This document shows, piece by piece, positions 2,165 through 35,824 of a DNA stretch of 64,000 nucleotides (the first letter of the stretch is position 1; the number at the start of each line of letters is the position of its first letter). A program made the position numbers and the translations under genes. The notes beneath the pieces are model-generated. The model saw only the letters and a program-made list of their open reading frames with translations. It searched no databases and had not been told where the DNA came from. Source of the DNA: Flavobacteriaceae bacterium (GTDB lineage Bacteria; Bacteroidota; Bacteroidia; Flavobacteriales; Flavobacteriaceae); NCBI GenBank assembly GCA_049615925.1, contig JBMZGM010000005.1, positions 5,183-69,182 on the forward strand, written 5' to 3'.

Positions 2165-3168
2165 TCCCATCCCAAAGTGGTGAGAATGGGGAAGTGATCA
2201 GAATATTTTTTCGGGATCACTTTAAATGAATTAACGTTAAATTCCTCGTGAGCAAAAATAAAGTCTATCCGTAATGGAAAAGAGGAAAAATAAAAGGTTT
2301 CACCTAAACCCTTTCCCGCTTCAGCAAAAGTATCTTGACGTCCTTTTGCAATTGCTTTATAGGTTTTAGAGAATTGTGTATTGTTTAAATCGGTACAGAC
2401 TATCGCTGGTAAATCATTTGTAGCTTCGACCGATTCAAATTGCTCGATTTGCGAAAGTTGTTTTTTAAATACCTCATCAAATTTAATTTGTAATGCCGCC
2501 GAGTCTGGGTTGGTAAATAAACTATCTTCTTCATTGATACGGAACGATTCAAAATGCAAATTATAAACCCTGAAGCGTTTCCCACTAAAAAACAAATCAA
2601 CATAGGCTCCACTATTTGTGGAGCCTTCAAAATCAATATAGCCCTGATCAAGAATTGGCAGTTTTGAATAAATGGCTAGTGGAGACTTTCCCATGGAGCG
2701 ATTGGGTTGAATATAGCGATACTCATATGCATCTAGTCGTGGAGTATCGGTTTTAGAATACTCTTGAAAACAAATCACATCTGGATTTTCTTCTCGAATT
2801 AACTGTTCAATTTCTGTAGCAACATCAAGACCTTTTATCCATTGATATTTATTAAATAAACGAACGTTATAACTCATTACCCCTATAGTAGAGCCGCTTT
2901 TCCTAATGGTATTATTTGGGAATTGATACAAAAGGTTCCATTCGCCATAACCAATTAAAAAAGCCCCCATAAACAATAAGAAAGGCCATTTAATTTTAAC
3001 CACCCAATAACAAAACAAGAGTAGGTTGATCAAAACAACAACAGGGACAAATAAATTGAGAATAGAAAAATTGAAAAACGATGGAATACTCCCCATCAAC
3101 ATCAATTGAAAGATCAACAACAAAAGGTTGAAAAAGAGCAATAGATTTTCAAAAAAAGATAATTTCAT
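2161..3168 (-). CDS. endonuclease/exonuclease/phosphatase (EEP) family membrane protein
   Basis: 335-aa ORF with N-terminal TM helices followed by EEP hallmarks (MSYNVRLFN.., ..SDHFPI at the C-terminus). Confidence 0.8.
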   Translation of the reverse strand: MKLSFFENLLLFFNLLLLIFQLMLMGSIPSFFNFSILNLFVPVVVLINLLLFCYWVVKIKWPFLLFMGAFLIGYGEWNLLYQFPNNTIRKSGSTIGVMSYNVRLFNKYQWIKGLDVATEIEQLIREENPDVICFQEYSKTDTPRLDAYEYRYIQPNRSMGKSPLAIYSKLPILDQGYIDFEGSTNSGAYVDLFFSGKRFRVYNLHFESFRINEEDSLFTNPDSAALQIKFDEVFKKQLSQIEQFESVEATNDLPAIVCTDLNNTQFSKTYKAIAKGRQDTFAEAGKGLGETFYFSSFPLRIDFIFAHEEFNVNSFKVIPKKYSDHFPILTTLGWD

Positions 3169-3185
3169 GGGAAGTGATTTGAGCT

Positions 3186-4046
3186 TTACTTTTTACCAGC
3201 CTTAAATAGAAATTCCTTTTCTGCTTTTGAGAGACTATCATAGCCCGAAGCACTTATTTTATCAAGGATACGGTCAATTTTTTCTTGATCAGAAGTAGTT
3301 GACGTTGAGGGTCGTTTTCGATAGGTTTTATGTACCGTTTTCATCTTTGGCGAAGTGTTCCCTAGGGATGAAAACCAATTCCAAAGACGCTCAAAACCAA
3401 CACCAATATCATTCCCCTTTTGCAATTGTTGCGCATAAAAATAACCCAAGGCCGCCCCTCCTATATGGGCGAGATGACCCCCTGCATTCCCCGTGGGAAT
3501 CTGTAGGACATCCATCACCACAAGCGCGATTCCGATATACATCAACTTTACATTAAAAAACAAAAGGCGAACCTCTTGATAAGGGGTATAGGTACAACTA
3601 AAAATCAACACTGCCATTACACCAGCAGAAGCACCAACCATCGAAGGATTTTGATCACTAAATACCGGAAAGACAGCATAACTCAACAAAAAGACAATTC
3701 CGCCAGTCAAGATTCCCATGAAATATACATTGATAAATCGCTGTGAAGAAAAGAGGTTTAAAAAAAACTGCGAAGCATAATACAACAATAACATGTTCCA
3801 AAAAATATGCCGCAAGCCATCGTGCAAAAACCCATAGGTCAATAATGTCCAGGGGCGATAAATAAACTCGCTAAAGGAAGAAGGTAACTCAAAGAAATCA
3901 AAAAAAGTTTGTTGGGGTAATTCCAACAAATAAAAGAGGGTGCGCAAGAAAAAAGGAACCACAAAGCAAACAACATTGATCAAAATCAATTTCTCTGCAA
4001 TGTTAAATTGACTAAAACGTTGACGGAAGCTTGTAAAACGACTCAT
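3186..4046 (-). CDS. rhomboid family intramembrane serine protease with C-terminal soluble tail
   Basis: Polytopic ORF with GASAGV (catalytic Ser) and HLAHIGGAALG (catalytic His) motifs. It has a C-terminal tail of about 60 aa (..IDRILDKISASGYDSLSKAEKEFL..). Confidence 0.85.
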   Translation of the reverse strand: MSRFTSFRQRFSQFNIAEKLILINVVCFVVPFFLRTLFYLLELPQQTFFDFFELPSSFSEFIYRPWTLLTYGFLHDGLRHIFWNMLLLYYASQFFLNLFSSQRFINVYFMGILTGGIVFLLSYAVFPVFSDQNPSMVGASAGVMAVLIFSCTYTPYQEVRLLFFNVKLMYIGIALVVMDVLQIPTGNAGGHLAHIGGAALGYFYAQQLQKGNDIGVGFERLWNWFSSLGNTSPKMKTVHKTYRKRPSTSTTSDQEKIDRILDKISASGYDSLSKAEKEFLFKAGKK

Positions 4047-10093: not shown

Positions 10094-10509
10094 AAAATTT
10101 CTCTACCAGAAAAGTGAAACGCTCCTTCGATAGCAGCATTTTCATCACTATCTGAACCGTGTACCGCATTCTCTCCCATTGATGTAGCATAGAGTTTGCG
10201 AATGGTACCCTCGGCAGCATCAGCAGGATTTGTCGCCCCAATCAAGGTTCTAAAATCGGTTACAGCATTTTCTTTCTCTAAAATCGCAGCGATAATAGGT
10301 CCACGCGTCATAAAAGTGACTAATTCTCCAAAAAATAGACGTTCACTGTGAACGCTATAAAAAGCCTCTGCATCGGCTTTAGAAAGCTGTGTTTTTTTCA
10401 AGGCAACAATGCGAAATCCAGCCGCAGTAATTTTCTCTAGGATGGCACCAGTATGTCCATTCTCAACTGCATCTGGTTTAATCATCGTAAAAGTTCTATT
10501 CGTTGTCAT
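10090..10509 (-). CDS. ndk: nucleoside-diphosphate kinase
   Basis: NDK signature [11 protein letters not shown]..., NAVHGSD. I take ATG 10509 (MTTNRTF..) as the start rather than the track's 10578. Confidence 0.93.
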
Positions 10510-10626: not shown

Positions 10627-11637
10627 ATGTATAAAGAATTTACCACCCAACTAAAATCCCTGCTTGCCACTCCACAACACTGTGTTATTTTCCCCCATAA
10701 AAACCCCGATGGGGATGCCTTGGGAAGCACACTTGCACTCCAGCATTTTCTCGAAAAAAAAGGTCATGATTGTGTCATTATCTCTCCTAACGAATACCCA
10801 AAGTTTCTCGCCTGGCTCCCCGGGCAAGAGAGGATTCGCTGTTTTAACAAAGAAGAAGAAAGCTGCTTAGCACTCATCAAACAAGCTGATGTTTTTTTTA
10901 CCCTAGACTTTAATGCCCTGGGGAGAATTGCTCCACTGGACAAAGCCATTGAAAATACCACTCGTCCCATTGTGATGATAGATCATCATGAAGCGCCACA
11001 AGATTATGCTCATATTCGCTATTCCGACCCTAGCATAGGATCTACCTGTGAAATGGTTTTTAATGTATTGAGCACATGGGACAAAAGCGCCCTGGATAAA
11101 ACCATTGGGAGTTGTATTTACACTGGAATGATGACAGATAGTGGTTCGTTCCGTTTTTCTTCAACTACTGCGACTACACATTCTATCGTGGCACAACTGT
11201 TAGAACTAGGTGTTGAACACAGCTTAATTCATCAAAATATTTATGATAGTTACCGCTTTGAGCGTTTACAACTCCTAGGGATTACCTTAAAAAATTTAGT
11301 GCGCATTGACTCCTTGCCCGCTGTTTACACTAGTTTGAGTCAAGAAGAACTCAATTCCTGTGATTTTCAAAAAGGAGACAGTGAAGGCTTTGTCAATTAT
11401 GGCCTTAGTCTAGAAGGGGTGAAATTGGCCGTAATCATGATTGAAAATAAACAAGAAGGCATCATCAAAATGTCCTTTCGATCAAAAGGCAATTTTGATG
11501 TCAATCAATTCGCTAGAACCTATTTTAATGGTGGAGGGCATATTAATGCTGCTGGGGGAATGTCCACCTCCTCGCTTGATGCAACGCGCCATGCCCTAGA
11601 AAAAGCCATCCTTGAAAACACCGCTTTACTCCAATGA
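10627..11637 (+). CDS. nrnA: DHH family phosphoesterase (NrnA-like oligoribonuclease/pAp phosphatase)
   Basis: 336-aa ORF with DHH motifs (HKNPDGDALGS, MIDHH) and a DHHA1 C-terminus (GGGHINAAG). Confidence 0.85.
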   Translation: MYKEFTTQLKSLLATPQHCVIFPHKNPDGDALGSTLALQHFLEKKGHDCVIISPNEYPKFLAWLPGQERIRCFNKEEESCLALIKQADVFFTLDFNALGRIAPLDKAIENTTRPIVMIDHHEAPQDYAHIRYSDPSIGSTCEMVFNVLSTWDKSALDKTIGSCIYTGMMTDSGSFRFSSTTATTHSIVAQLLELGVEHSLIHQNIYDSYRFERLQLLGITLKNLVRIDSLPAVYTSLSQEELNSCDFQKGDSEGFVNYGLSLEGVKLAVIMIENKQEGIIKMSFRSKGNFDVNQFARTYFNGGGHINAAGGMSTSSLDATRHALEKAILENTALLQ

Positions 11638-12185
11638 AAAAATGCTTCCTCATCATTAGTCTGCTCTTCGTGATCTCGTGTCAAGAACAAGAAGCGAGAA
11701 AACCCTTATACCAAAGCGGTAACAGTGGCATGATTCAATCCATTGAACGCAATAAAAAAATCAATGCCCAGCAACAGGCTTTATTTCAACAAATCATAAA
11801 GAAAGATAGTCTTTTGAGTTTTATTTCTTCTCCAGCAGGTTACTGGTATGCTTATACGACTAAATCAAATCAAAGCATCCAGCCACAACGAGGAGATCAA
11901 GTTAAATTCAATTATTCCATTCAATCACTTGAAGGGACTCCCCTTTACAATACAGAAGAACTAGGCACTGTTGATTATCTGGTTGACAAAGAAGAATTGC
12001 TACCCGCTTTACGCTATGCCGTTAAAGATTTAAGCGTGGGAGACATCGGGGTATTTTTGGTGCCATCTTTCCTTGGTTATGGCTATCAGGGTGACGGAGA
12101 AAAAATCGGGATCAATCAACCCCTTCGATTCACCGTTGAACTTATCAACTTAAAACAAAACACGAATCCAAAGGATTCAAAATAA
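11634..12185 (+). CDS. gldI: FKBP-type peptidyl-prolyl isomerase lipoprotein, GldI-like
   Basis: 183-aa ORF overlapping the nrnA stop (ATGA). It has a lipobox (LLFVISC) and an FKBP C-terminal domain (..GDIGVFLVPSFLGYGYQG..). Size, architecture and context match the flavobacterial GldI family as I remember it. Confidence 0.6.
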   Translation: MKKCFLIISLLFVISCQEQEARKPLYQSGNSGMIQSIERNKKINAQQQALFQQIIKKDSLLSFISSPAGYWYAYTTKSNQSIQPQRGDQVKFNYSIQSLEGTPLYNTEELGTVDYLVDKEELLPALRYAVKDLSVGDIGVFLVPSFLGYGYQGDGEKIGINQPLRFTVELINLKQNTNPKDSK

Positions 12186-30486: not shown

Positions 30487-32418
30487 ATGCAAATGGAACC
30501 TACATTGTCACCTGAAGAAAATCAAGACAAACTTGAGCCAACAGGGGAAGATCAAATCACCACCAATGCCCAAGAAAAGGGGGATGAAGATCTTTCTAAA
30601 GAAGAGAACACCCCAGTATCAACAGAAACTTCTCCCACTAAAAATCTTGACATTGCAGTCGATCAACTCGCCCTAGAAGAGTTTCCTGCGGCGCTAGAAA
30701 AAGTGCTGAAAAATGATCAATGGATGCGTTTAGGCAATATAGTCCGTGATCTTCAGCAAAGTTTTGACTCCCAGTTTTTAGTCATTTTACAAGAAAAGAA
30801 AGCCGAATTCATTGCCGAAGGCGGAAATGAAATTGACTTTTATTTTGCCCCAGACTATAAAAAGCACTTTAGTGGTTTATTAAAAGAATACAAGCAAAAA
30901 AAGGCGAAGTACTTTAAAGAAATAGAAACGACGCAAAAAGCCAACCTCAACAGAAAGCGAGAAATCATTGAAGAGATTAAGCTTTTAGTCGATCAAAGCG
31001 ATCACAACAATGGCACCTATCGCCAGTTTAAAAACCTGCAGGAAGCCTTCCACAATACAGGTTTAGTTCCAAGGAATGAAGTCAATAATATTTGGCAAAC
31101 CTATAAATTTCATGTTGAACGCTTTTATGACTTTTTACACCTCAACCGCGATTTACGCGAAGCCGACTTCAAACACAATTATGAAGAAAAGTTGAAAATC
31201 ATTGAGCGTGCAGAAGCGCTTGCTCAAAATGCAGATGTCATCGCTTCTATACGTGAGCTCAATACCCTACATCGTTTATGGAAAAATGATCTAGGACCCG
31301 TAGCACGAGAACACCGCGAGGAATTGTGGAGTCGATTTCAAGCGGCCACTAAGGCAATTCACCAACTAAAGAATGAATACAATAAAAATATTGACAGTAT
31401 TCAAAGTGAAAATCTTGCCAAAAAAGATGGTATTCTTAAACAAATAGCAGAGTTAATCGCAACCGCTCCCTCCAATCACAATGCATGGCAAAACGCCATC
31501 AAAAAGGTCAACACCCTAAAAGAGGAGTTTCATGCGATTGGACGCGTACCCAAAGCCGAAAACAAGCGTTTATGGAACAGCTTCAGGGAATTGAGTCGGG
31601 AATTTAATCAAGCGAAGAACCTCTTTTACAAAGAACAAAAAAGTCAAGAAAAACAATACATTGAGGCCAAAAAAGCCTTAATCGAGGAAGTAGCCACAAT
31701 TTTAGATGATCCCAATTGGCGCGATCATGTTAGCCGAATGAAATCGGTTCAAACCGATTGGAAAAAAACAGGCCGCATCTCCAGAAGACTTTCGAATAAA
31801 TTATGGGAAGAGTTTAAAGCCTTGACCAATCTTTATTTTGATCGCCTCAAAAATAAAACTGAAGCCCTGAGTGCGGCAGATCAAGCAGCGCTTGCAGCCC
31901 AAAATAATTTTGTGGAAAGCCTGCTCAAAACCGAAGCACCTACTACCCCAAAAAAACTAGAACGCTTTATCGACGAACAAGTTGAACAGTGGCTCAACCT
32001 AAACCCCGCCCCCAATGCGCCTGCACAAAAGAAATTACTACACCACCTGGTCAACCTTTGGGAGGCGACTTCCCTCTCGCAAAAAGAGAAGGCAAGCCAA
32101 AAGTTTACGACCCAATTAGCACTCATAAAACAGGACATCGATGCCCTTAACAGGGAACACGCCCTTCAAAAGAAAAAAATCGATGAAATCAATAACGAAT
32201 TGATCCAATTAGAGAACAACCTTCAGTTTTTTAGCAGTAGTAGTGAAGAAAATCCCGTTGTGATTGAAGTAAATGCTAAAATCAAAAAACTCTCCCAACA
32301 AAAAGAAGCATTGGAAGAAAAAAGCAATGCCATTAAATCCTTAAAACGAGCCCTTAAAAAACAAGAAGAAGCCGGTGCAGCTGAAAACGCTGAAGGTGAA
32401 GAAGTACTGGAAGATTAA
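30487..32418 (+). CDS. DUF349 domain repeat protein
   Basis: 643-aa highly charged helical ORF. It has at least 4 recurring W..F/Y-type units (NNIWQTYKFHVERF, EELWSRFQAATKA, KRLWNSFRELSREF, NKLWEEFKALTNLY) typical of DUF349 repeats. Confidence 0.8.
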   Translation: MQMEPTLSPEENQDKLEPTGEDQITTNAQEKGDEDLSKEENTPVSTETSPTKNLDIAVDQLALEEFPAALEKVLKNDQWMRLGNIVRDLQQSFDSQFLVILQEKKAEFIAEGGNEIDFYFAPDYKKHFSGLLKEYKQKKAKYFKEIETTQKANLNRKREIIEEIKLLVDQSDHNNGTYRQFKNLQEAFHNTGLVPRNEVNNIWQTYKFHVERFYDFLHLNRDLREADFKHNYEEKLKIIERAEALAQNADVIASIRELNTLHRLWKNDLGPVAREHREELWSRFQAATKAIHQLKNEYNKNIDSIQSENLAKKDGILKQIAELIATAPSNHNAWQNAIKKVNTLKEEFHAIGRVPKAENKRLWNSFRELSREFNQAKNLFYKEQKSQEKQYIEAKKALIEEVATILDDPNWRDHVSRMKSVQTDWKKTGRISRRLSNKLWEEFKALTNLYFDRLKNKTEALSAADQAALAAQNNFVESLLKTEAPTTPKKLERFIDEQVEQWLNLNPAPNAPAQKKLLHHLVNLWEATSLSQKEKASQKFTTQLALIKQDIDALNREHALQKKKIDEINNELIQLENNLQFFSSSSEENPVVIEVNAKIKKLSQQKEALEEKSNAIKSLKRALKKQEEAGAAENAEGEEVLED

Positions 32419-32680
32419 TTATTGCAGCTTTGTCTTTAAATACCCAAAGCGGAAGAATCGATACTTTTTTATTACGTGGAACAAAATCCTCCTAGGTTAA
32501 AACTCAACATGAGAAACGGCAAGTAAGGATATTTGACTTAAATGCTCCATTTACTCTTTTACCCCTTTGGCATTAAAACCTAATTTCTCTGCGTCTTCAA
32601 CCAATTCCAATTGGTTTGTGCATGAAAAGGAAATTTTGGAGTTTAAAGTAGTTCCAAAAAAACCCAAAATGGAATAATCT

Positions 32681-33301
32681 TTAAGCGATAAATTTAACTA
32701 GTAACAAAAAACTAGTTGGAATAAGATTAACGAAAAAATGGAACCATAGAGAATAGTTAAATCCACATTTCAATCTTAAAACTGATGAAACTAGGGCAAT
32801 TGAAATTTGAGGTGAAATCAGAACTGGAAAAAATAAATATTGTTTAGTATCCTCAAATTGAATATTTGATAAATGAACTAATCCAAAAATGAGTACAGAA
32901 CCATATACCATAATTAAAAGGTTATTCTGTATCAGATTTTTTAATTTTTTTTCAAAATTGTTTTTTGATAAAAATTGATAAACAGCAATAATTACCATTG
33001 ATACAATAATCAGTTTGTAAATTAAAAAGATTGAAATTTTATAAAAACCAGAATTGGATGCAATAGAAATAATGTAATAGCATATACCTCCCAGAGATAT
33101 AGAAATATTTAATCTCGAATACCTTAAAAATAGTCGAAAACTTATTTCTTCCAATAAAGGGCCAGCAAATAGGACGGTAATTAATATATAATATCAACTA
33201 TTTTTTAAAATAAACGCAAACACTTTATGTGGTGGCAATCCATAATTTGACCTTATATAACTAATTATAAACCATGTGATTATCATCATCAAACAATACA
33301 T
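32681..33301 (-). pseudogene. CPBP (CAAX protease/bacteriocin-processing, Abi) family intramembrane glutamic protease, interrupted by an in-frame TGA
   Basis: The track ORF 32681..33154 starts (TTG) exactly at CPBP motif 1 (EEISFR). Motif 2 (FGLVH) and motif 3 (HFFVN) are also present. The same frame continues upstream (YYILITVLFAGPL), crosses a single TGA at 33194-33196, and reaches ATG 33301 (MYCLMMIITWFIISYIRSNYGLPPHKVFAFILKNS), which supplies the missing N-terminal TM helices. Confidence 0.6.
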
Positions 33302-33408
33302 GAGAAATGAAACATAAAAAAAATTTCTTTTCTCAACATTAGATGATAGTATGGATCCATCTTCCTTCCCTAAAAAAAATCAAAAAATAAGACTACATGT
33401 TTTTTCAT

Positions 33409-33437
33409 AAAAAAAGTCCAGTCTTTTAATACTGGAC
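33409..33437 (-). terminator. rho-independent terminator (minus strand)
   Basis: On the minus strand: GTCCAGT-attaaaag-ACTGGAC followed by T7. It lies 72 nt downstream of the 41-aa ORF and immediately upstream of the CPBP region. Confidence 0.65.
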
Positions 33438-33508
33438 ATTTACCTTAAGTTTTCTGTATCAACTATTGTAGTTTTCATTTCTAATCATTTTTTATTGCGC
33501 TTCGAAAA

Positions 33509-33634
33509 TCAACTAAATCCAGTCAAAAGACCTACTTTGAAATGATCCCAATCACTTACTATCGCTCTTGTGATTAAAAAGGCAATTAATAAAAATATTA
33601 ACGTGCTTGTTTTTATAGATTTATTTCGTTCCAT
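33509..33634 (-). CDS. hypothetical 41-aa single-pass membrane peptide
   Basis: Hand-translated, below the track cutoff: MERNKSIKTSTLIFLLIAFLITRAIVSDWDHFKVGLLTGFS. Its ATG shares 1 nt with the TAA of the upstream peptide gene (TAATG), suggesting translational coupling. Confidence 0.4.
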   Translation of the reverse strand: MERNKSIKTSTLIFLLIAFLITRAIVSDWDHFKVGLLTGFS

Positions 33635-33810
33635 TAATGATTTGTTTCATGAATACTATAATTAGCAATAGCGTCGATTACACCTTTAAAACTTGTATTC
33701 TTTCCAGATAAACTTGAACCAATAAGCCATCCAACATCAAAAGCAAAACAGCCGCTAGAAACACTCATTAATTCGTTTTTAGATAATTCTTTGAAATTTT
33801 TATTCTCAAT
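33634..33810 (-). CDS. candidate double-glycine-type leader peptide (class II bacteriocin-like precursor)
   Basis: Hand-translated: (I)ENKNFKELSKNELMSVSSG|CFAFDVGWLIGSSLSGKNTSFKGVIDAIANYSIHETNH. The leader fits F-x-x-L-S-x-x-E-L-x-x-V-x-(S)G, and the core has GxxxG-like motifs. The only ATG (33768) lies inside the leader. The codon where Met would be expected is ATT (33810). The frame is open from 33834. Confidence 0.4.
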   Translation of the reverse strand: MENKNFKELSKNELMSVSSGCFAFDVGWLIGSSLSGKNTSFKGVIDAIANYSIHETNH

Positions 33811-33815
33811 AGTTA

Positions 33816-33986
33816 CTAATTGACCCTTCTTAAACTACGAATCATTAATGCTATTCCAATTAATATCAATAATAGATTCATGCCATTTTCATCAAGACTA
33901 AGAGGGGCATTAAAATTTAAATTCAAAAAACTTAATACCAGTATCAATAATGAAAGAATAAATAATAAATTTTTTGACTTTAACAT
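33816..33986 (-). CDS. hypothetical 56-aa membrane peptide with two hydrophobic segments
   Basis: Hand-translated, below the track cutoff: MLKSKNLLFILSLLILVLSFLNLNFNAPLSLDENGMNLLLILIGIALMIRSLRRVN. Its stop lies 5 nt before the ATT codon of the leader peptide ORF. Confidence 0.4.
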   Translation of the reverse strand: MLKSKNLLFILSLLILVLSFLNLNFNAPLSLDENGMNLLLILIGIALMIRSLRRVN

Positions 33987-34032
33987 TTATACAATTAATT
34001 AGATTAAGGCGACTATATCCTGTTGTTTAAAG

Positions 34033-34359
34033 CTAAAGTAAACGCCTATCCTGCAATTCCCTTGCCGTTTGCACTTTTTTTAGTTGCCCGCCAATAATCC
34101 TAGTCATTTCATCGTCCATTAAAACCCGTACCTCAAGATGGACACTCAATTCAAAGGGATCACAATAGCGGTAGGTTTTTCGTTTACGGTCATAGCATAG
34201 TTCTGCTCCCCAATCTTTTAATATCCCAAGGTCATAGCGTAGGGTGCGCTGGCTAATCCCTAATAGCTGTGCGATCTCGGTAGCCGTACCCGTTTGCTCA
34301 GCTTTAAGGCAAAGATGTAAACGCTCAAGGCGTTGAAAATGTTTAAGGGAATAGGTCAT
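34033..34359 (-). CDS. small HTH (HTH_11/YafY-N-terminal-like) transcriptional regulator
   Basis: From ATG 34359: MTYSLKHFQRLERLHLCLKAEQTGTATEIAQLLGISQRTLRYDLGILKDWGAELCYDRKRKTYRY.. This is a winged-HTH pattern followed by the YDR.rk.Y.Y element seen after HTH_11 domains. Confidence 0.65.
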   Translation of the reverse strand: MTYSLKHFQRLERLHLCLKAEQTGTATEIAQLLGISQRTLRYDLGILKDWGAELCYDRKRKTYRYCDPFELSVHLEVRVLMDDEMTRIIGGQLKKVQTARELQDRRLL

Positions 34360-34582
34360 TTTGAATAGAATTGGATTGATTTGGGTTAATCCAGTCAATA
34401 ACATCATCATACAGTAGTTGAAAGAGACTGCGATGGGCTTGATAAAACAAGGCCGTTAAAGTCAAGCCTTTTGTAAGACTTCCTTTTATCCCGCTGAGTA
34501 AATTTGAATGAGGTTGTAAACGAAAATGATGCAGCTCCACCGTCTGGTCAAGGAACTCCTTAGGAAAGAGTTGATTTTTCAT
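34343..34582 (-). CDS. hypothetical protein (79 aa)
   Basis: Track ORF overlapping the HTH gene start by 17 nt. I recognise no family. It is preceded by a perfect inverted repeat. Confidence 0.4.
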   Translation of the reverse strand: MKNQLFPKEFLDQTVELHHFRLQPHSNLLSGIKGSLTKGLTLTALFYQAHRSLFQLLYDDVIDWINPNQSNSIQNDLFP

Positions 34583-34602
34583 GTTAAGATTTTGGTCTTA
34601 AC
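34583..34602. promoter_or_regulatory. perfect 7-bp inverted repeat (GTTAAGA-N6-TCTTAAC) abutting the start codon of the 79-aa ORF
   Basis: Read directly from the sequence at 34583-34589 and 34596-34602. It sits 18 nt downstream of the mazG stop and directly 5' of ATG 34582 on the minus strand. It could be an operator or an mRNA hairpin. No T-run follows it. Confidence 0.3.
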
Positions 34603-34620
34603 AAGATATAAAAAATAAAA

Positions 34621-35400
34621 TTATTGCTGCTTTGCCTCTTCCCAGTAAACGTTCATTTCATCTAGGGTCATCTCATGCAAGGACTTGCCGAGGGCTTTGG
34701 CCTTTGCCTCTAAATACCCAAAGCGTTGAGTAAATTTCTGGTTGGTACGCTCTAGGGCAGTATCGGGGTTGATCTTTAAAAAACGGGCATAATTGATCAT
34801 GGAAAAAAGCACATCGCCAAACTCGGCTTCAATGGCTTCTTTGTTTCCACTTTTGATTTCCTCGTTCAGTTCACTGAGTTCCTCTTGTACCTTTTCCCAT
34901 ACCTGTTCGGGTTGTTCCCAGTCAAAGCCCACACCAGCAACCTTATCTTGAATGCGCTGTGCTTTTACAAGCGCGGGTAAGCCCTTTGGGACACCTTCTA
35001 GAACAGTTTTCTTTCCTTTGCCTTCTTTTAACTTTAAAGCCTCCCAGTTTTGTTTGACCTCTTCTTCGCTCTCCACCTTTACATCCCCATAAATGTGCGG
35101 GTGGCGATAGATTAGTTTTTCAGAAATTCCATGGGCAATATCGGCCATATCAAAGGCCTTTTCTTCGCTCCCCAGGCGAGCATAAAAGGCGATGTGTAAA
35201 AGTAAATCCCCTAGCTCATTTTTAATTTCATCGAGATTGCGCGCTAGAATAGCATCCCCCAGTTCATAGGTCTCTTCAATGGTGAGATGTCGCAGGGACT
35301 CAAAGGTTTGCTTTTTATCCCATGGGCATTGCTCGCGCAACTCATCCATAATGGTGAGCAGGCGATCAAGGGCAGCTAATTGATCCTTTCGGCTATTCAT
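34621..35400 (-). CDS. mazG: nucleoside triphosphate pyrophosphohydrolase MazG
   Basis: From ATG 35400 (MNSRKDQLAALDRLLTIMDELREQCPWDKKQT..). It has tandem MazG EExGE-type motifs (EETYELGDA, ELGDLLL, EFGDVLF). The track's longer 331-aa form overlaps the upstream gene. Confidence 0.9.
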   Translation of the reverse strand: MNSRKDQLAALDRLLTIMDELREQCPWDKKQTFESLRHLTIEETYELGDAILARNLDEIKNELGDLLLHIAFYARLGSEEKAFDMADIAHGISEKLIYRHPHIYGDVKVESEEEVKQNWEALKLKEGKGKKTVLEGVPKGLPALVKAQRIQDKVAGVGFDWEQPEQVWEKVQEELSELNEEIKSGNKEAIEAEFGDVLFSMINYARFLKINPDTALERTNQKFTQRFGYLEAKAKALGKSLHEMTLDEMNVYWEEAKQQ

Positions 35401-35824
35401 CCTCTTGAGTGACTTCTTCTTCTGCTGGACTTTCTTGTGTAAATATCTCGGGAGCTTTCTCGACGAGGATATTGTACCACTGAATGATTTTTTTGATGTC
35501 TGAGGGATAGACTCTTTCTTCGTCATAATCTTGAAAGACGTCAAAGAAAAAGGCTTCAAGCTCTTCGGCAGGGGCTTTCGCTTTAACCGAGCAGCTTTTC
35601 CCATCTTCTTTGGCATAGATCATTTTAAAAACCTCTAATAATGGGACTTCCTTTTCTAAGCCATAGATGTTTATTTCAGATAAAAGACTTACTTGATTTC
35701 GCACCGATGCATTGATGCGCTTGCCATCAACAAGGGAGGTTGCAACCACCCCTGTTCTGGTTTGAATGGCGACTTCATATAGTCCTGGTCTTCCTCCGAT
35801 GGAAATAATTTTATCGAGTTGCAT
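35393..35824 (-). CDS. DUF5606 domain protein
   Basis: 143-aa ORF (MQLDKIISIGGRPGLYEV..SLLSEINIY..IKKIIQWYNIL) matching my recollection of the DUF5606 family that commonly neighbours def in Flavobacteriia. Confidence 0.75.
   Translation of the reverse strand: MQLDKIISIGGRPGLYEVAIQTRTGVVATSLVDGKRINASVRNQVSLLSEINIYGLEKEVPLLEVFKMIYAKEDGKSCSVKAKAPAEELEAFFFDVFQDYDEERVYPSDIKKIIQWYNILVEKAPEIFTQESPAEEEVTQEDE

What the first reader, a model, noticed from the sequence alone, without database searches (positions are those of the whole stretch)
32419..34620. Strongly AT-rich ~2.2 kb accessory islet between the DUF349 gene and mazG
Every other intergenic gap in this window is under about 170 nt, yet here 2.2 kb contains no ORF above 160 aa. 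Base composition collapses: I count only 10 G+C in the 60 nt at 32941-33000, while flanking genes look near 40%. Everything codable reads on the minus strand, in this order. First comes a 79-aa ORF overlapping a small HTH regulator. Then come three back-to-back mini-ORFs of 56 aa, 44-58 aa and 41 aa, followed by a strong terminator. Last is a CPBP/Abi intramembrane protease gene broken by a TGA. A double-glycine-type leader peptide, small hydrophobic proteins, an Abi/CPBP protein and a local regulator together form the classic parts list of class II bacteriocin production/immunity loci in Firmicutes. Such loci are barely characterised in Flavobacteriia. I saw no integrase, transposase, tRNA or flanking direct repeats, and no C39-peptidase ABC exporter lies in the window. 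The HTH pair (34033-34582) has more normal G+C than the 32.65-34.03 kb core, so the islet may be composite.
Basis: partly seen in the sequence, partly recalled or inferred. Interest (0 to 1): 0.7.

Follow-up and report, generated by a model that had tools for sequence, protein, structure and literature searches.

The report
Decayed bacteriocin-export locus remnant
The AT-rich 2.2 kb block is the eroded wreck of a peptide-toxin (bacteriocin/microcin-type) export and immunity locus that related marine flavobacteria still carry intact at the same spot, so it is real and explainable but can no longer make or export a toxin.

Summary
Window 32419-34620 is extra DNA between convergent mazG and DUF349. 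Its core (32681-34032) is 26% G+C against 40.3 +/- 1.8% elsewhere, the lowest in the window.

The bacteriocin reading is right in kind but wrong in state. Metagenome contigs from relatives (Ca. Arcticimaribacter, NS5 group) carry an intact locus at this junction: mazG > HlyD-type adaptor > HTH_11 regulator > AT-rich cassette of double-glycine peptides plus CPBP/small membrane proteins > C39-peptidase ABC exporter (PCAT) | DUF349.

The window keeps only wreckage:
- The 79-aa ORF is HlyD with about 310 codons deleted.
- The CPBP gene has a 1-nt frameshift as well as TGG>TGA.
- About 40-55 codons of the PCAT's C39 domain remain.
- The leader-type peptide has no ATG/GTG/TTG start and reads SG instead of GG.

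Only the HTH and two small membrane ORFs (p56, p41) are intact. Those two are 94% nt-identical to a locus in a 26-30% G+C flavobacterium, which indicates cassette transfer. A second copy of the mazG 3' end abuts DUF349, marking recombination between occupied and empty alleles. Other relatives show different deletion endpoints or an empty site.

Verdict: a degraded member of a known kind, of moderate interest.

The parts
34619..34725 (-). 3' end of the functional mazG gene; repeat copy 1
   Evidence: mazG ORF. Segments 34702-34725 and 34619-34637 recur at 32417-32451.
34343..34582 (-). orf79: in-frame stub of the HlyD-family adaptor gene (N-terminal about 24 aa plus C-terminal about 47 aa; about 310 codons deleted)
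   Evidence: tblastn with the intact L082 HlyD (391 aa) matches residues 2-24 at 34588-34520 and residues 339-385 at 34516-34376, in the same frame. L082 HlyD matches PF13437 HlyD_3 (2e-10) and TIGR01843.
34033..34359 (-). HTH_11-type regulator, 108 aa from the Met that aligns with relatives (the ORF could start at 34410); apparently intact
   Evidence: PF08279 HTH_11 scores 30.5 bits against a cut-off of 25. It is 52% identical over all 94 residues of the L082 HTH. An HTH gene follows HlyD in nearly all related loci.
33816..33986 (-). p56: small protein with two hydrophobic segments, immunity-type candidate, intact ORF
   Evidence: 89% aa and 93.7% nt identical to an ORF in L120, where it is adjacent to the p41 homologue. 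No family hit.
33634..33816 (-). pep: double-glycine-leader-type peptide gene, probably defective (no ATG/GTG/TTG before the leader; the first ATG at 33768 lies inside the leader; SG where GG is expected)
   Evidence: Sequence. The leader resembles GG leaders of related loci (local alignment z 6.6-8.6, 0 of 2000 shuffles). TIGR01847 scores 13.9 bits against a cut-off of 15.7. The core has no significant relative.
33509..33634 (-). p41: leaderless small membrane protein with a C-terminal DWxxFKxGL motif, intact ORF
   Evidence: 80% aa identical to P0176 in L120. It is related to 47-48 aa leaderless proteins in L098 and L090 (z 8.7-10.8) and to the mature part of GG peptides in the same loci (z 7.9).
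33409..33437 (-). Intrinsic-terminator-like hairpin plus T7 run between the small ORFs and the CPBP gene
   Evidence: The stem is conserved in L082 at the same position, while the loop differs.
32681..33408 (-). CPBP (Rce1-like/Abi) intramembrane protease pseudogene: original ATG at 33408, -1 frameshift in the T-run at 33372-33379 (8 T against 9 T), TGG>TGA at 33196-33194
   Evidence: DNA and protein alignments with intact L082/P0002 and P0003. The EExxxR, FxxxH and HxxxN motifs are present. NF052640 gives E 1e-9. 34 of 40 profile relatives match PF02517. TGA is used as a stop elsewhere in the window.
32506..32619 (-). Fragment of the C39 peptidase domain of the PCAT exporter (about residues 43-83, perhaps to about 100, with in-frame stops); the catalytic-Cys region and about 620 C-terminal codons are missing
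   Evidence: tblastn with the L085 PCAT (720 aa) matches residues 46-83 at 63% identity. L085 PCAT matches PF03412 at 2.6e-35 and TIGR01193 at 523 bits.
32417..32451 (-). Second, degenerate copy of the mazG 3' end (32 of 35 nt, with a 66-nt internal gap between two AGAGGCAAAG repeats); its TAA directly abuts the DUF349 stop
   Evidence: Local alignment to the window's own mazG 3' end gives z 7.3 (0 of 500 shuffles), against z 1.2 or less for PCAT 3' ends and z 1.9 or less for mazG of relatives. No such repeat occurs in 10 other loci.
32650..34032 (.). AT-rich core (peptide/immunity cassette), 26% G+C
   Evidence: The same low G+C is seen in cassettes of the intact loci L082 (24%) and L085 (27%).

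Best explanation
The islet is a pseudogenised remnant of a type-I-secretion peptide-toxin locus of the class II bacteriocin / class II microcin kind.

The intact form is seen in relatives at the same mazG|DUF349 junction. It consists of a HlyD-family adaptor, an HTH_11 regulator, an AT-rich exchangeable cassette, and a C39-peptidase ABC exporter (PCAT). The cassette holds double-glycine-leader peptides with their presumed immunity genes (CPBP protease, small membrane proteins). The inferred mechanism of the intact form, from knowledge of the families, runs as follows:
- The PCAT cuts the leader after GG and pumps the peptide out through the adaptor and an outer-membrane channel.
- The CPBP and small membrane proteins protect the producer.
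- The HTH regulator controls the peptide promoters.
- The hairpin after the peptide genes lowers read-through into the downstream genes.

What is shown for this genome: the adaptor is reduced to a 79-aa stub and the exporter to a fragment of about 40-55 codons. The CPBP gene carries a frameshift and a nonsense codon. The one leader-type peptide has lost its start codon and its GG site. The locus therefore cannot produce or export a toxin.

Only the HTH regulator and two small membrane ORFs (p56, p41) remain open. They may still act as orphan immunity genes, but this is unproven.

The AT-rich core is a mosaic. The p56/p41 module was exchanged recently with low-G+C marine flavobacteria, and the CPBP part is shared with L082-type loci. 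The copy of the mazG 3' end beside DUF349 indicates that the right end was formed by recombination between an occupied and an empty allele, with one illegitimate junction.
For: Synteny: mazG and DUF349 are adjacent (4-338 nt apart) in the four closest genomes.

Intact loci at the same junction:
- L082 runs mazG end > HlyD 391 aa > HTH 94 aa > two GG peptides > CPBP 242 aa > PCAT N-terminus.
- L119 runs CPBP > two GG peptides > 86-aa membrane protein > PCAT 720 aa, overlapping the DUF349 stop.

Mapping of intact proteins onto the window: HlyD residues 2-24 and 339-385, the full HTH, CPBP residues 2-242, and PCAT residues 46-83.

Lesions: 8 T against 9 T in the T-run, and TGA against TGG. TGA serves as a stop in 4 of 48 long ORFs in the window. 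The sequence is identical in an independent assembly.

Timing: CPBP dN/dS against L082 is 0.24, so inactivation is recent.

Decay series with different endpoints at the same junction:
- L087: HlyD 1-249 joined to PCAT 462-713.
- L106: HlyD 1-169 joined to PCAT 639-713.
- L109/L110: HlyD 1-74 joined to PCAT 675-713.
- L112: HlyD 2-66 joined to PCAT 625-704.
- L003: HlyD 2-52 joined to PCAT 683-718.
- L113/L114: HlyD stubs plus HTH.

Family context: 47 GG-leader peptides were found in the related loci.

Composition: cassette G+C is 24-27% against 42-44% for the export machinery in L082 and L085.

Transfer: p56 and p41 are 93.7-93.9% nt identical to L120, whose neighbouring SusC-like gene is 26% G+C.

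Repeat: the mazG 3' duplicate is documented.
Against: - No expression data exist. The HTH, p56 and p41 ORFs are intact, so the block is not wholly dead.
- An ATT start for the leader peptide, or cleavage after SG, cannot be formally excluded.
- A PCAT/HlyD pair elsewhere in the genome, outside the 64 kb, could in principle serve surviving peptides. None lies in the window.
- Substitutions since divergence from L120 are mostly non-synonymous (p41 8 to 0; p56 6 to 2). This gives no support for purifying selection, but the numbers are too small to decide.
- The occupied/empty-allele recombination model could not be confirmed by a breakpoint in mazG, because the relatives in hand are too divergent.
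Confidence: 0.85

Rival explanations
1. Orphan immunity module. After production was lost, selection keeps the HTH regulator, p56 and p41 (a 'cheater' genotype). These would protect the cell from DWxNFKAGL-type peptides made by neighbouring flavobacteria. This is a functional sub-variant of the best explanation, not a contradiction of it.
For: - The three ORFs are the only intact ones in the islet.
- p41 and p56 occur as an adjacent pair in L120 and are 80-89% aa identical to it.
- p41-type leaderless proteins co-occur with GG peptides that share their C-terminal motif.
- Two independent HlyD deletions (the window, and L113/L114) both keep the HlyD start and the HlyD 3' end that overlaps the HTH start.
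- A precedent exists in pneumococcal blpA-mutant cheaters (PMC3171984).
Against: - p41 differs from L120 by 8 non-synonymous and 0 synonymous changes, and p56 by 6 and 2. There is thus no sign of purifying selection.
- No cognate peptide A gene and no expression data are available.
- p56 has no detectable family.
- Short ORFs stay open by chance quite easily in AT-rich DNA that is poor in... stop-free frames are short, but 41-56 codons is not decisive.
Confidence: 0.3
2. Working class II bacteriocin production/immunity locus. The small ORFs would be produced, processed and exported, with the CPBP protein giving immunity.
For: The parts list resembles such loci, and the leader-like sequence KELSKNELMSVSSG is present.
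Against: - The exporter and adaptor are reduced to stubs, and there is no other PCAT or HlyD in the window.
- The CPBP gene has a frameshift and a TGA.
- The peptide has no canonical start before the leader and reads SG instead of GG.
- TIGR01847, TIGR03949 and PF10439 all score below their cut-offs.
Confidence: 0.04
3. The CPBP gene is still expressed through recoding: TGA read as Trp or Sec, or read through, plus a programmed frameshift at the T-run.
For: - The Logan gene caller translated the ORF with TGA as Trp and obtained a 206-aa product.
- Homologues have Trp at exactly that codon.
- The frameshift lies in a slippery T8 run.
Against: - TGA terminates 4 of 48 long ORFs in the window.
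- The homologues use TGG.
- Two separate recoding events in one small gene are improbable.
- The neighbouring genes are decayed too.
Confidence: 0.02
4. Assembly chimera: AT-rich DNA from a low-G+C flavobacterium was mis-joined into this contig.
For: The core is 26% G+C, and parts of it are 94% identical to a locus in a low-G+C organism.
Against: - An independent Logan assembly gives the identical 2601 nt spanning mazG, the islet and DUF349.
- The intact loci L082 and L085 show the same pattern of normal-G+C machinery around an AT-rich cassette within continuous ORFs.
- Homology to L082 runs across the G+C boundaries, from the CPBP gene into the PCAT fragment.
Confidence: 0.03
5. Classical integrase-driven genomic island that targets the 3' end of mazG, with the direct repeats acting as att sites.
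For: A direct repeat of the mazG 3' end flanks the block. The same junction holds other cargo in other Flavobacteriaceae, such as IS256 plus a toxin-antitoxin pair in L057 and adhesins in L008.
Against: - No integrase, transposase or tRNA is present in the islet or in any related occupied locus.
- In L087, L106, L110, L003 and L119 the PCAT stop abuts DUF349 with no repeat.
Confidence: 0.05

Closest known systems
Class II microcin systems of Gram-negative bacteria (e.g. colicin V: CvaC peptide, CvaB PCAT, CvaA membrane-fusion protein, TolC, Cvi immunity), as summarised in PMC12219008
   Same: In the intact relatives, double-glycine-leader peptides are encoded next to a C39-peptidase ABC exporter and a HlyD-family adaptor in a diderm bacterium.
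   Different: - The host is marine Flavobacteriaceae.
- An HTH_11 regulator sits between the adaptor and the peptide genes.
- There are several peptides per locus.
- The presumed immunity genes are CPBP, DUF3267 or tiny membrane proteins.
- The window's copy is non-functional wreckage.
Bacteroidetocin loci of gut Bacteroidales (PMC6671954, PMC8546649)
   Same: They belong to the same phylum, Bacteroidota. The peptides are GG-leader toxins that need an adjacent peptidase-transporter.
   Different: Bacteroidetocin regions are four genes: a TM protein, the peptide, a thiol oxidoreductase and the transporter, with no immunity gene found (PMC6671954). The loci described here have HlyD, HTH_11 and CPBP/small membrane proteins, and no thiol oxidoreductase. 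Sequence relatedness of the peptides was not tested.
Class IIb (two-peptide) bacteriocin loci of Firmicutes with Abi/CPBP immunity proteins. The role of Abi proteins in self-immunity is stated from my own knowledge; CAAX proteases in streptococcal bacteriocin loci are described in PMC9298176.
   Same: A CPBP gene lies directly after a pair of GG-leader peptides in L082 and L083. Some family members are named 'lactobin A/cerein 7B family class IIb bacteriocin' by a source.
   Different: - This is a Gram-negative context that needs an adaptor.
- The CPBP subfamily is divergent, scoring below the Pfam cut-off.
- In the window, the cognate peptide pair upstream of the CPBP gene is absent and the CPBP gene is broken.
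Streptococcus pneumoniae blp locus: a variable bacteriocin-immunity region between conserved genes, with frequent blpA (PCAT) disruption giving 'cheater' strains (PMC3171984, PMC4860687)
   Same: - An exchangeable peptide/immunity cassette sits between conserved export and regulatory genes.
- The exporter is inactivated in part of the population.
- Immunity-type genes are possibly retained.
   Different: - The phylum is different.
- Regulation is by a one-component HTH rather than a peptide-pheromone two-component system.
- Here the loss proceeds by large deletions, down to complete removal of the locus.

Membership tests
PCAT-dependent double-glycine peptide (class II bacteriocin / class II microcin) locus | Precursor peptide with an N-terminal double-glycine leader (LSxxELxxIxGG) and a translatable start | tested here: not met
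   The leader-like KELSKNELMSVSSG is significantly similar to GG leaders of relatives. However, it has no ATG/GTG/TTG upstream, has SG at positions -2/-1, and scores 13.9 bits on TIGR01847 against a cut-off of 15.7. Relatives L082, L083, L085, L098 and others meet this feature.
PCAT-dependent double-glycine peptide (class II bacteriocin / class II microcin) locus | ABC exporter with an N-terminal C39 peptidase domain (catalytic Cys) | tested here: not met
   Only residues of about 43-83(100) remain, with in-frame stops. The 'DCGAAC' region and the whole membrane and ATPase parts are absent. The intact relative L085 matches PF03412 at 2.6e-35 and TIGR01193 at 523.2 bits against a cut-off of 523.85.
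PCAT-dependent double-glycine peptide (class II bacteriocin / class II microcin) locus | HlyD-family membrane-fusion/accessory protein (in diderm bacteria) | tested here: not met
   A 79-aa in-frame stub holds HlyD residues 2-24 and 339-385. The intact L082 protein matches PF13437 at 41.8 bits against a cut-off of 22.2.
PCAT-dependent double-glycine peptide (class II bacteriocin / class II microcin) locus | Descent from (homology and synteny with) bona fide loci of this kind | tested here: met
   Homology is collinear with L082 and L119 at the same mazG|DUF349 junction.
PCAT-dependent double-glycine peptide (class II bacteriocin / class II microcin) locus | Antibacterial activity of the exported peptide and cognate immunity | not testable with these tools
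   No member of this flavobacterial locus family has been tested, as far as my literature searches show.
CPBP / Rce1-like (Abi) intramembrane protease, PF02517 | Conserved motifs EExxxR, FxxxH and HxxxN/D in transmembrane helices | tested here: met
   LLEEISFR, IFGLVH and HFFVN are present. The same columns are invariant in 40 profile relatives.
CPBP / Rce1-like (Abi) intramembrane protease, PF02517 | Score at or above the Pfam gathering threshold | tested here: not met
   The window protein scores 19.0 bits against a cut-off of 22.4, P0002 scores 16.6 and P0003 scores 22.2. However, 34 of 40 relatives found with the profile match PF02517 (best E 4.2e-9), and NF052640 gives E 1e-9. It is therefore a divergent member of the superfamily.
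CPBP / Rce1-like (Abi) intramembrane protease, PF02517 | Uninterrupted reading frame | tested here: not met
   There is a -1 frameshift at 33372-33379 and a TGA at 33196-33194.
Integrase-mediated genomic island | Integrase/recombinase gene, tRNA or other att target, and flanking direct repeats | tested here: not met
   No integrase or transposase is among the ORFs and no tRNA is present. A direct repeat of the mazG 3' end is present but is better explained by allele recombination.
Bacteroidetocin locus | Four-gene set: TM protein, bacteroidetocin peptide, thiol oxidoreductase, peptidase-transporter (PMC6671954) | tested here: not met
   No thiol oxidoreductase occurs in the window or in the intact relatives, and the layout differs. 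Peptide sequence similarity was not tested.

The most novel reading that the evidence does not exclude
The small leaderless membrane proteins of the p41 type are paralogues of the mature part of the double-glycine peptides encoded beside them, sharing a C-terminal DWxNFKAGLxG motif. A second pair in L098 shares HFVAGMFNPF. Under this reading they act as immunity proteins by mimicking the toxin, as a membrane-anchored decoy or dominant-negative partner. The window's genome would then be a non-producer that keeps such orphan immunity genes, acquired by cassette transfer from low-G+C flavobacteria. In that case the NS5 populations would hold producers, immune cheaters and fully cured genotypes at one locus.
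Probability: 0.22. Interest if true: 0.6.

Novelty: new member of a known kind. Interest (0 to 1): 0.4.

Why it matters
This explains an odd AT-rich patch without invoking anything exotic. It also shows that the abundant, streamlined NS5/Arcticimaribacter flavobacteria of the surface ocean carry a peptide-toxin export locus at a fixed chromosomal site, and repeatedly lose it.

The series runs from intact loci through partly deleted and stub-only forms to the empty site. It gives a ready-made natural experiment on the cost and benefit of bacteriocin production in planktonic bacteria.

The near-identical AT-rich module in hosts of very different G+C content shows that peptide/immunity cassettes move between marine flavobacterial lineages.

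For annotation, it is a warning that the 79-aa, 44-aa and CPBP fragment ORFs here are pseudogene pieces. One gene caller rescued the CPBP ORF only by switching to genetic code 4.

Tried and rejected
- An Rfam scan of the whole window found nothing, and ARAGORN found no tRNA.
- Exact look-ups of the DUF349 protein and of the 44-aa peptide product in the assembly index found nothing on record.
- tblastn of the islet ORFs against 80 genome loci around mazG gave no hits except a HlyD stub in L003. Representative genomes therefore mostly lack the locus, and the informative loci came from metagenome contigs.
- The pep core has no homologue other than its own NCBI MAG entry. Its resemblance to the 65-aa 'WCS...HHCN' peptides of L098 and L090 is not significant (z 3.3 and 1.65), so I dropped that claim.
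- p56 against the L090 54-aa protein is not significant (z 3.0).
- I tested whether the distal 35 nt is the PCAT C-terminus rather than mazG, and rejected it (z 1.2 or less against 7.3).
- I looked for a recombination breakpoint in mazG by binned identity to relatives. The result was uninformative because all relatives are only 53-88% identical.
- The strict Bacteroidetes promoter consensus (TTTG-N17-23-TAnnTTTG) has no match in the islet. The sigma-70 scan found no more sites than shuffled sequence.
- TGA recoding was rejected because TGA is used as a stop in the window and homologues use TGG.

Full report
**1. The observation**

The block between the stop of the DUF349 gene (32418) and the stop of mazG (34621) is real and unusual for this window.
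- G+C in 300-nt windows falls from about 40-46% in the flanks to 23-28% between about 32650 and 34000.
- The 1352-nt core 32681-34032 is 26.0% G+C. All same-size windows outside the islet average 40.3% (sd 1.8, minimum 35.1%).
- The ORF layout on the minus strand is as described.
- The hairpin plus T7 run at 33437-33409 is found by the terminator scan and folds at -10.5 kcal/mol.
- A crude ORF tiling shows no other gap above about 153 nt.
- There is no tRNA and no Rfam family in the window.
- A Logan assembly contig (L081) is 100% identical over 2601 nt, including the in-frame TGA.

**2. Organism and synteny**

mazG is 81-90% identical in protein sequence to Candidatus Arcticimaribacter genomes and MAGs. 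This genus belongs to the NS5 marine group of Flavobacteriaceae (PMC9122927). In the four closest genomes mazG and DUF349 are convergent neighbours, separated by 47, 190, 338 and 4 nt (L001-L004). The 2.2 kb is therefore extra relative to them.

Elsewhere in the family the same junction holds unrelated cargo. L008 has lectin/T9SS-type adhesins, and L057 has IS256 plus a RelE/ParE pair.

**3. What the islet derives from**

The CPBP-like frame, joined across the TGA, has only three word-index homologues. One is the identical Logan contig, where the gene was called only because TGA was read as Trp (one search reports 'translates to query: no').

The second homologue, P0002 (73% identical), lies on contig L082. 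This contig shows the intact arrangement at the same chromosomal site:
- the end of mazG;
- a 391-aa HlyD-family adaptor;
- a 94-aa HTH_11 regulator whose start overlaps the HlyD stop;
- two peptides with canonical double-glycine leaders (MKNLELQNYGILELISKDMFNVNGG|... and MKKIILLGKEELKLVNGG|...);
- a hairpin;
- a 242-aa CPBP gene;
- the N-terminus of a C39-peptidase ABC transporter (MPQIKIKQHDITDCGAACL...).

A profile relative of the CPBP, on contig L119, supplies the other end: CPBP, two GG peptides, an 86-aa membrane protein, and a 720-aa PCAT whose stop overlaps the DUF349 stop.

The family assignments of the intact proteins are solid:
- HlyD matches PF13437 and TIGR01843.
- The PCAT matches PF03412 (2.6e-35), PF00664 and PF00005, and scores 523.2 bits on TIGR01193 against a cut-off of 523.85.

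A metagenome scan with the L082 HlyD brought in 35 more loci. Those with an intact HlyD have the order HlyD, HTH, 1-3.7 kb cassette, PCAT. In them I found 47 small ORFs with GG leaders of the type MKNLxNFGVQELxAKEIxExxGG.

**4. State of the window's copy**

I mapped the intact proteins onto the window.
- **HlyD.** Residues 2-24 and 339-385 survive in one frame.
- **HTH.** It is full length (52% identity over 94 residues) and passes the HTH_11 threshold.
- **CPBP gene.** It aligns over residues 2-242 at 71% identity but has two lesions. The original ATG at 33408 is put out of frame by a 1-nt deletion in a T-run (8 T against 9 T, 33372-33379). The Trp codon that is TGG in L082 and L083 is TGA here.
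- **Genetic code.** TGA ends 4 of 48 long ORFs in the window, so the code is standard.
- **Timing.** dN/dS of the CPBP gene against L082 is 0.24, so the gene was under constraint for most of the divergence and died recently.
- **CPBP family.** The CPBP motifs EExxxR, FxxxH and HxxxN are present. The same columns are invariant in 40 of the 1625 relatives found by the profile, and 34 of those 40 match PF02517.
- **PCAT.** Only residues of about 43-83 remain, perhaps to about 100, at 32619-32506. The fragment has in-frame stops and lacks the catalytic-Cys segment.
- **Rest of the window.** No other PCAT or HlyD lies in the 64 kb.

**5. The three mini-ORFs**

**pep (the 44-aa ORF).** Its frame is open upstream to 33834 and there reads ...VTIENKNFKELSKNELMSVSSG|CFAF....
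- This stretch is significantly similar to GG leaders of L105, L083 and L092 (z 6.6-8.6, 0 of 2000 shuffles).
- It contains no ATG, GTG or TTG before the leader. It has AGC-GGC (Ser-Gly) where Gly-Gly is expected.
- The bacteriocin-leader models score below their cut-offs.
- Its core has no homologue apart from its own MAG entry.
- I regard it as a damaged precursor gene. Both the Ser codon here and the TGA in the CPBP gene are one G>A change away from the expected codon.

**p41.** It belongs to a family of leaderless 41-48 aa membrane proteins.
- It is 80% identical to P0176 in L120, with z 8.7-10.8 against the L098 and L090 members.
- Remarkably, these proteins share their C-terminal motif DWxNFKAGLxG with the mature part of GG-leader peptides encoded in the same loci (z 7.9).

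**p56.** It has no family, but it is 89% identical to an ORF adjacent to the p41 homologue in L120.

Since divergence from L120, p41 has 8 non-synonymous and 0 synonymous changes, and p56 has 6 and 2. This is too few to decide, but it gives no evidence of purifying selection.

**6. Why the core is AT-rich**

The low G+C is not decay.
- In the intact loci of 42% G+C hosts the cassette is 24% (L082) and 27% (L085), against 42-44% for HlyD and PCAT.
- In loci from low-G+C flavobacteria the whole locus is 26-30%.
- The window's p56 segment (33986-33813) and the pep-3'/p41 segment (33669-33505) are 93.7% and 93.9% nt identical to L120. The chromosomal SusC-like gene of L120 is 26% G+C.

Such identity between hosts of very different base composition implies recent horizontal exchange of the cassette.

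The window's cassette is a mosaic. Homology to L082 starts exactly at the hairpin (33441) and covers the CPBP gene. The two cognate GG peptides that precede the CPBP gene in L082 and L083 are replaced here by the p56/pep/p41 module.

**7. Flanking repeat and origin of the right end**

- 32417-32451 matches the window's own mazG 3' end at 32 of 35 nt. The match falls in two collinear pieces, separated in mazG by 66 nt that lie between two AGAGGCAAAG repeats.
- Alignment of the distal 89 nt with the window's own mazG 3' end gives z 7.3 (0 of 500 shuffles). The value is 1.2 or less for PCAT 3' ends and 1.9 or less for mazG of relatives.
- Ten other loci have no such second copy.
- The TAA of the remnant directly abuts the DUF349 stop, just as the mazG stop does in the empty-site genomes L001 and L004.
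- In occupied loci it is the PCAT stop that abuts DUF349.

The simplest reading is an inference. The right end arose by recombination between an occupied and an empty allele from close relatives. The crossover was homologous on one side and illegitimate on the other, joining PCAT codon 83-100 to the mazG 3' end. A breakpoint test in mazG was uninformative.

**8. A decay series**

At the same junction, other contigs retain different stubs:

| Locus | HlyD residues kept | PCAT residues kept / other |
|---|---|---|
| L087 | 1-249 | 462-713 |
| L106 | 1-169 | 639-713 |
| L109/L110 | 1-74 | 675-713 |
| L112 | 2-66 | 625-704 |
| L003 | 2-52 | 683-718 |
| L113/L114 | 2-18 and 352-391 | HTH kept, with a DinB-like ORF inserted |

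L001, L002 and L004 are clean. L112 keeps more of the PCAT than L106 or L110, so at least several independent deletions occurred.

The locus is therefore old at this site in the clade and is being lost repeatedly. The window is one stage in that process.

**9. Mechanism and comparison**

The working form corresponds mechanistically to class II microcin secretion in Gram-negative bacteria: PCAT plus membrane-fusion protein plus an outer-membrane channel (PMC12219008). It also corresponds to class II bacteriocin loci with Abi/CPBP immunity in Firmicutes.

It differs from the only characterised Bacteroidota system, the bacteroidetocins. These have a four-gene layout with a thiol oxidoreductase and no HlyD, HTH or CPBP genes (PMC6671954).

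The population picture, with exporter loss and possible retention of immunity, recalls the pneumococcal blp locus with its blpA-mutant cheaters (PMC3171984).

I found no paper describing this locus family in marine Flavobacteriia.

**10. Verdict**

The finding is real and well explained. It is a pseudogenised, mosaic remnant of a PCAT/HlyD double-glycine-peptide locus, so it is a new and degraded member of a known kind.

What remains open:
- whether HTH, p56 and p41 still function as orphan immunity genes;
- whether p41-type proteins are toxin-mimicking immunity proteins.

The second question is the most novel reading that the data allow.

Noticed in passing
L098 9718-9891 vs 10158-10304; L090 2606-2779 vs 3065-3208; L098 11187-11360 vs 11518-11658; window 33509-33634: Leaderless 41-48 aa membrane proteins share their C-terminal motif with the mature part of a GG-leader peptide in the same locus. 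The motifs are DWxNFKAGLxGxPPI and, in a second pair, HFVAGMFNPF. This suggests immunity-type genes that are paralogues of the toxin core. There are 51 database members, and a source names two of them 'lactobin A/cerein 7B class IIb bacteriocin'.
   Followed up: partly
L090 3900-4088; L098/L099 10728-10820; L100 3237-3293; L108 10922-11326 and 12115-12638; L120 1541-1724: A recurring scar inside long cassette arrays consists of the first roughly 20-135 codons of the PCAT, followed in most of these loci by the 3' end of the HTH gene. It looks as if cassettes pile up by recombination between HlyD-HTH-cassette-PCAT units.
   Followed up: no
L120 661-994 vs window 33986-33813 and 33669-33505: The p41 and p56 genes are adjacent in the order p41 then p56 in L120. 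In the window the order is p56, pep, p41. Together with 94% nt identity, this points to a circularly permuted or tandem ancestor module.
   Followed up: partly
L113 625-1104 and L114 376-801: A DinB-family-like 141-aa ORF sits inside the HlyD deletion of these two contigs, between the HlyD N- and C-terminal stubs. I judged the family from the sequence only and did not scan it.
   Followed up: no
L008 10890-14181; L057 965-2873: Other Flavobacteriaceae hold quite different cargo at the same convergent mazG|DUF349 junction. L008 has C-type-lectin/T9SS-type surface proteins, and L057 has an IS256-family transposase plus a RelE/ParE-type toxin-antitoxin pair. The junction therefore looks like a general insertion hot spot.
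   Followed up: no
L083 3965-8330: This contig lies in a different genomic context, next to lepA. It carries five GG-leader peptides, a DUF3267 putative zincin, a 408-aa aspartic-protease-like protein, a C39 stub of 42 aa and the CPBP homologue P0003. It is another partly decayed locus.
   Followed up: no
window 34621-35616 and 35393-35824: The longest mazG ORF (331 aa) extends far upstream and overlaps the 143-aa ORF at 35393-35824. Homologues start at MNSRKDQL (about 35400), so the N-terminal extension of 72 codons is probably not translated.
   Followed up: no
L081 2377-2997 (same sequence as window 33301-32681): The public gene call for the CPBP fragment (P0001, 206 aa) was obtained only by reading TGA as Trp, that is, genetic code 4 chosen by a gene caller on an AT-rich contig. 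This is an annotation artefact that hides the pseudogene.
   Followed up: yes
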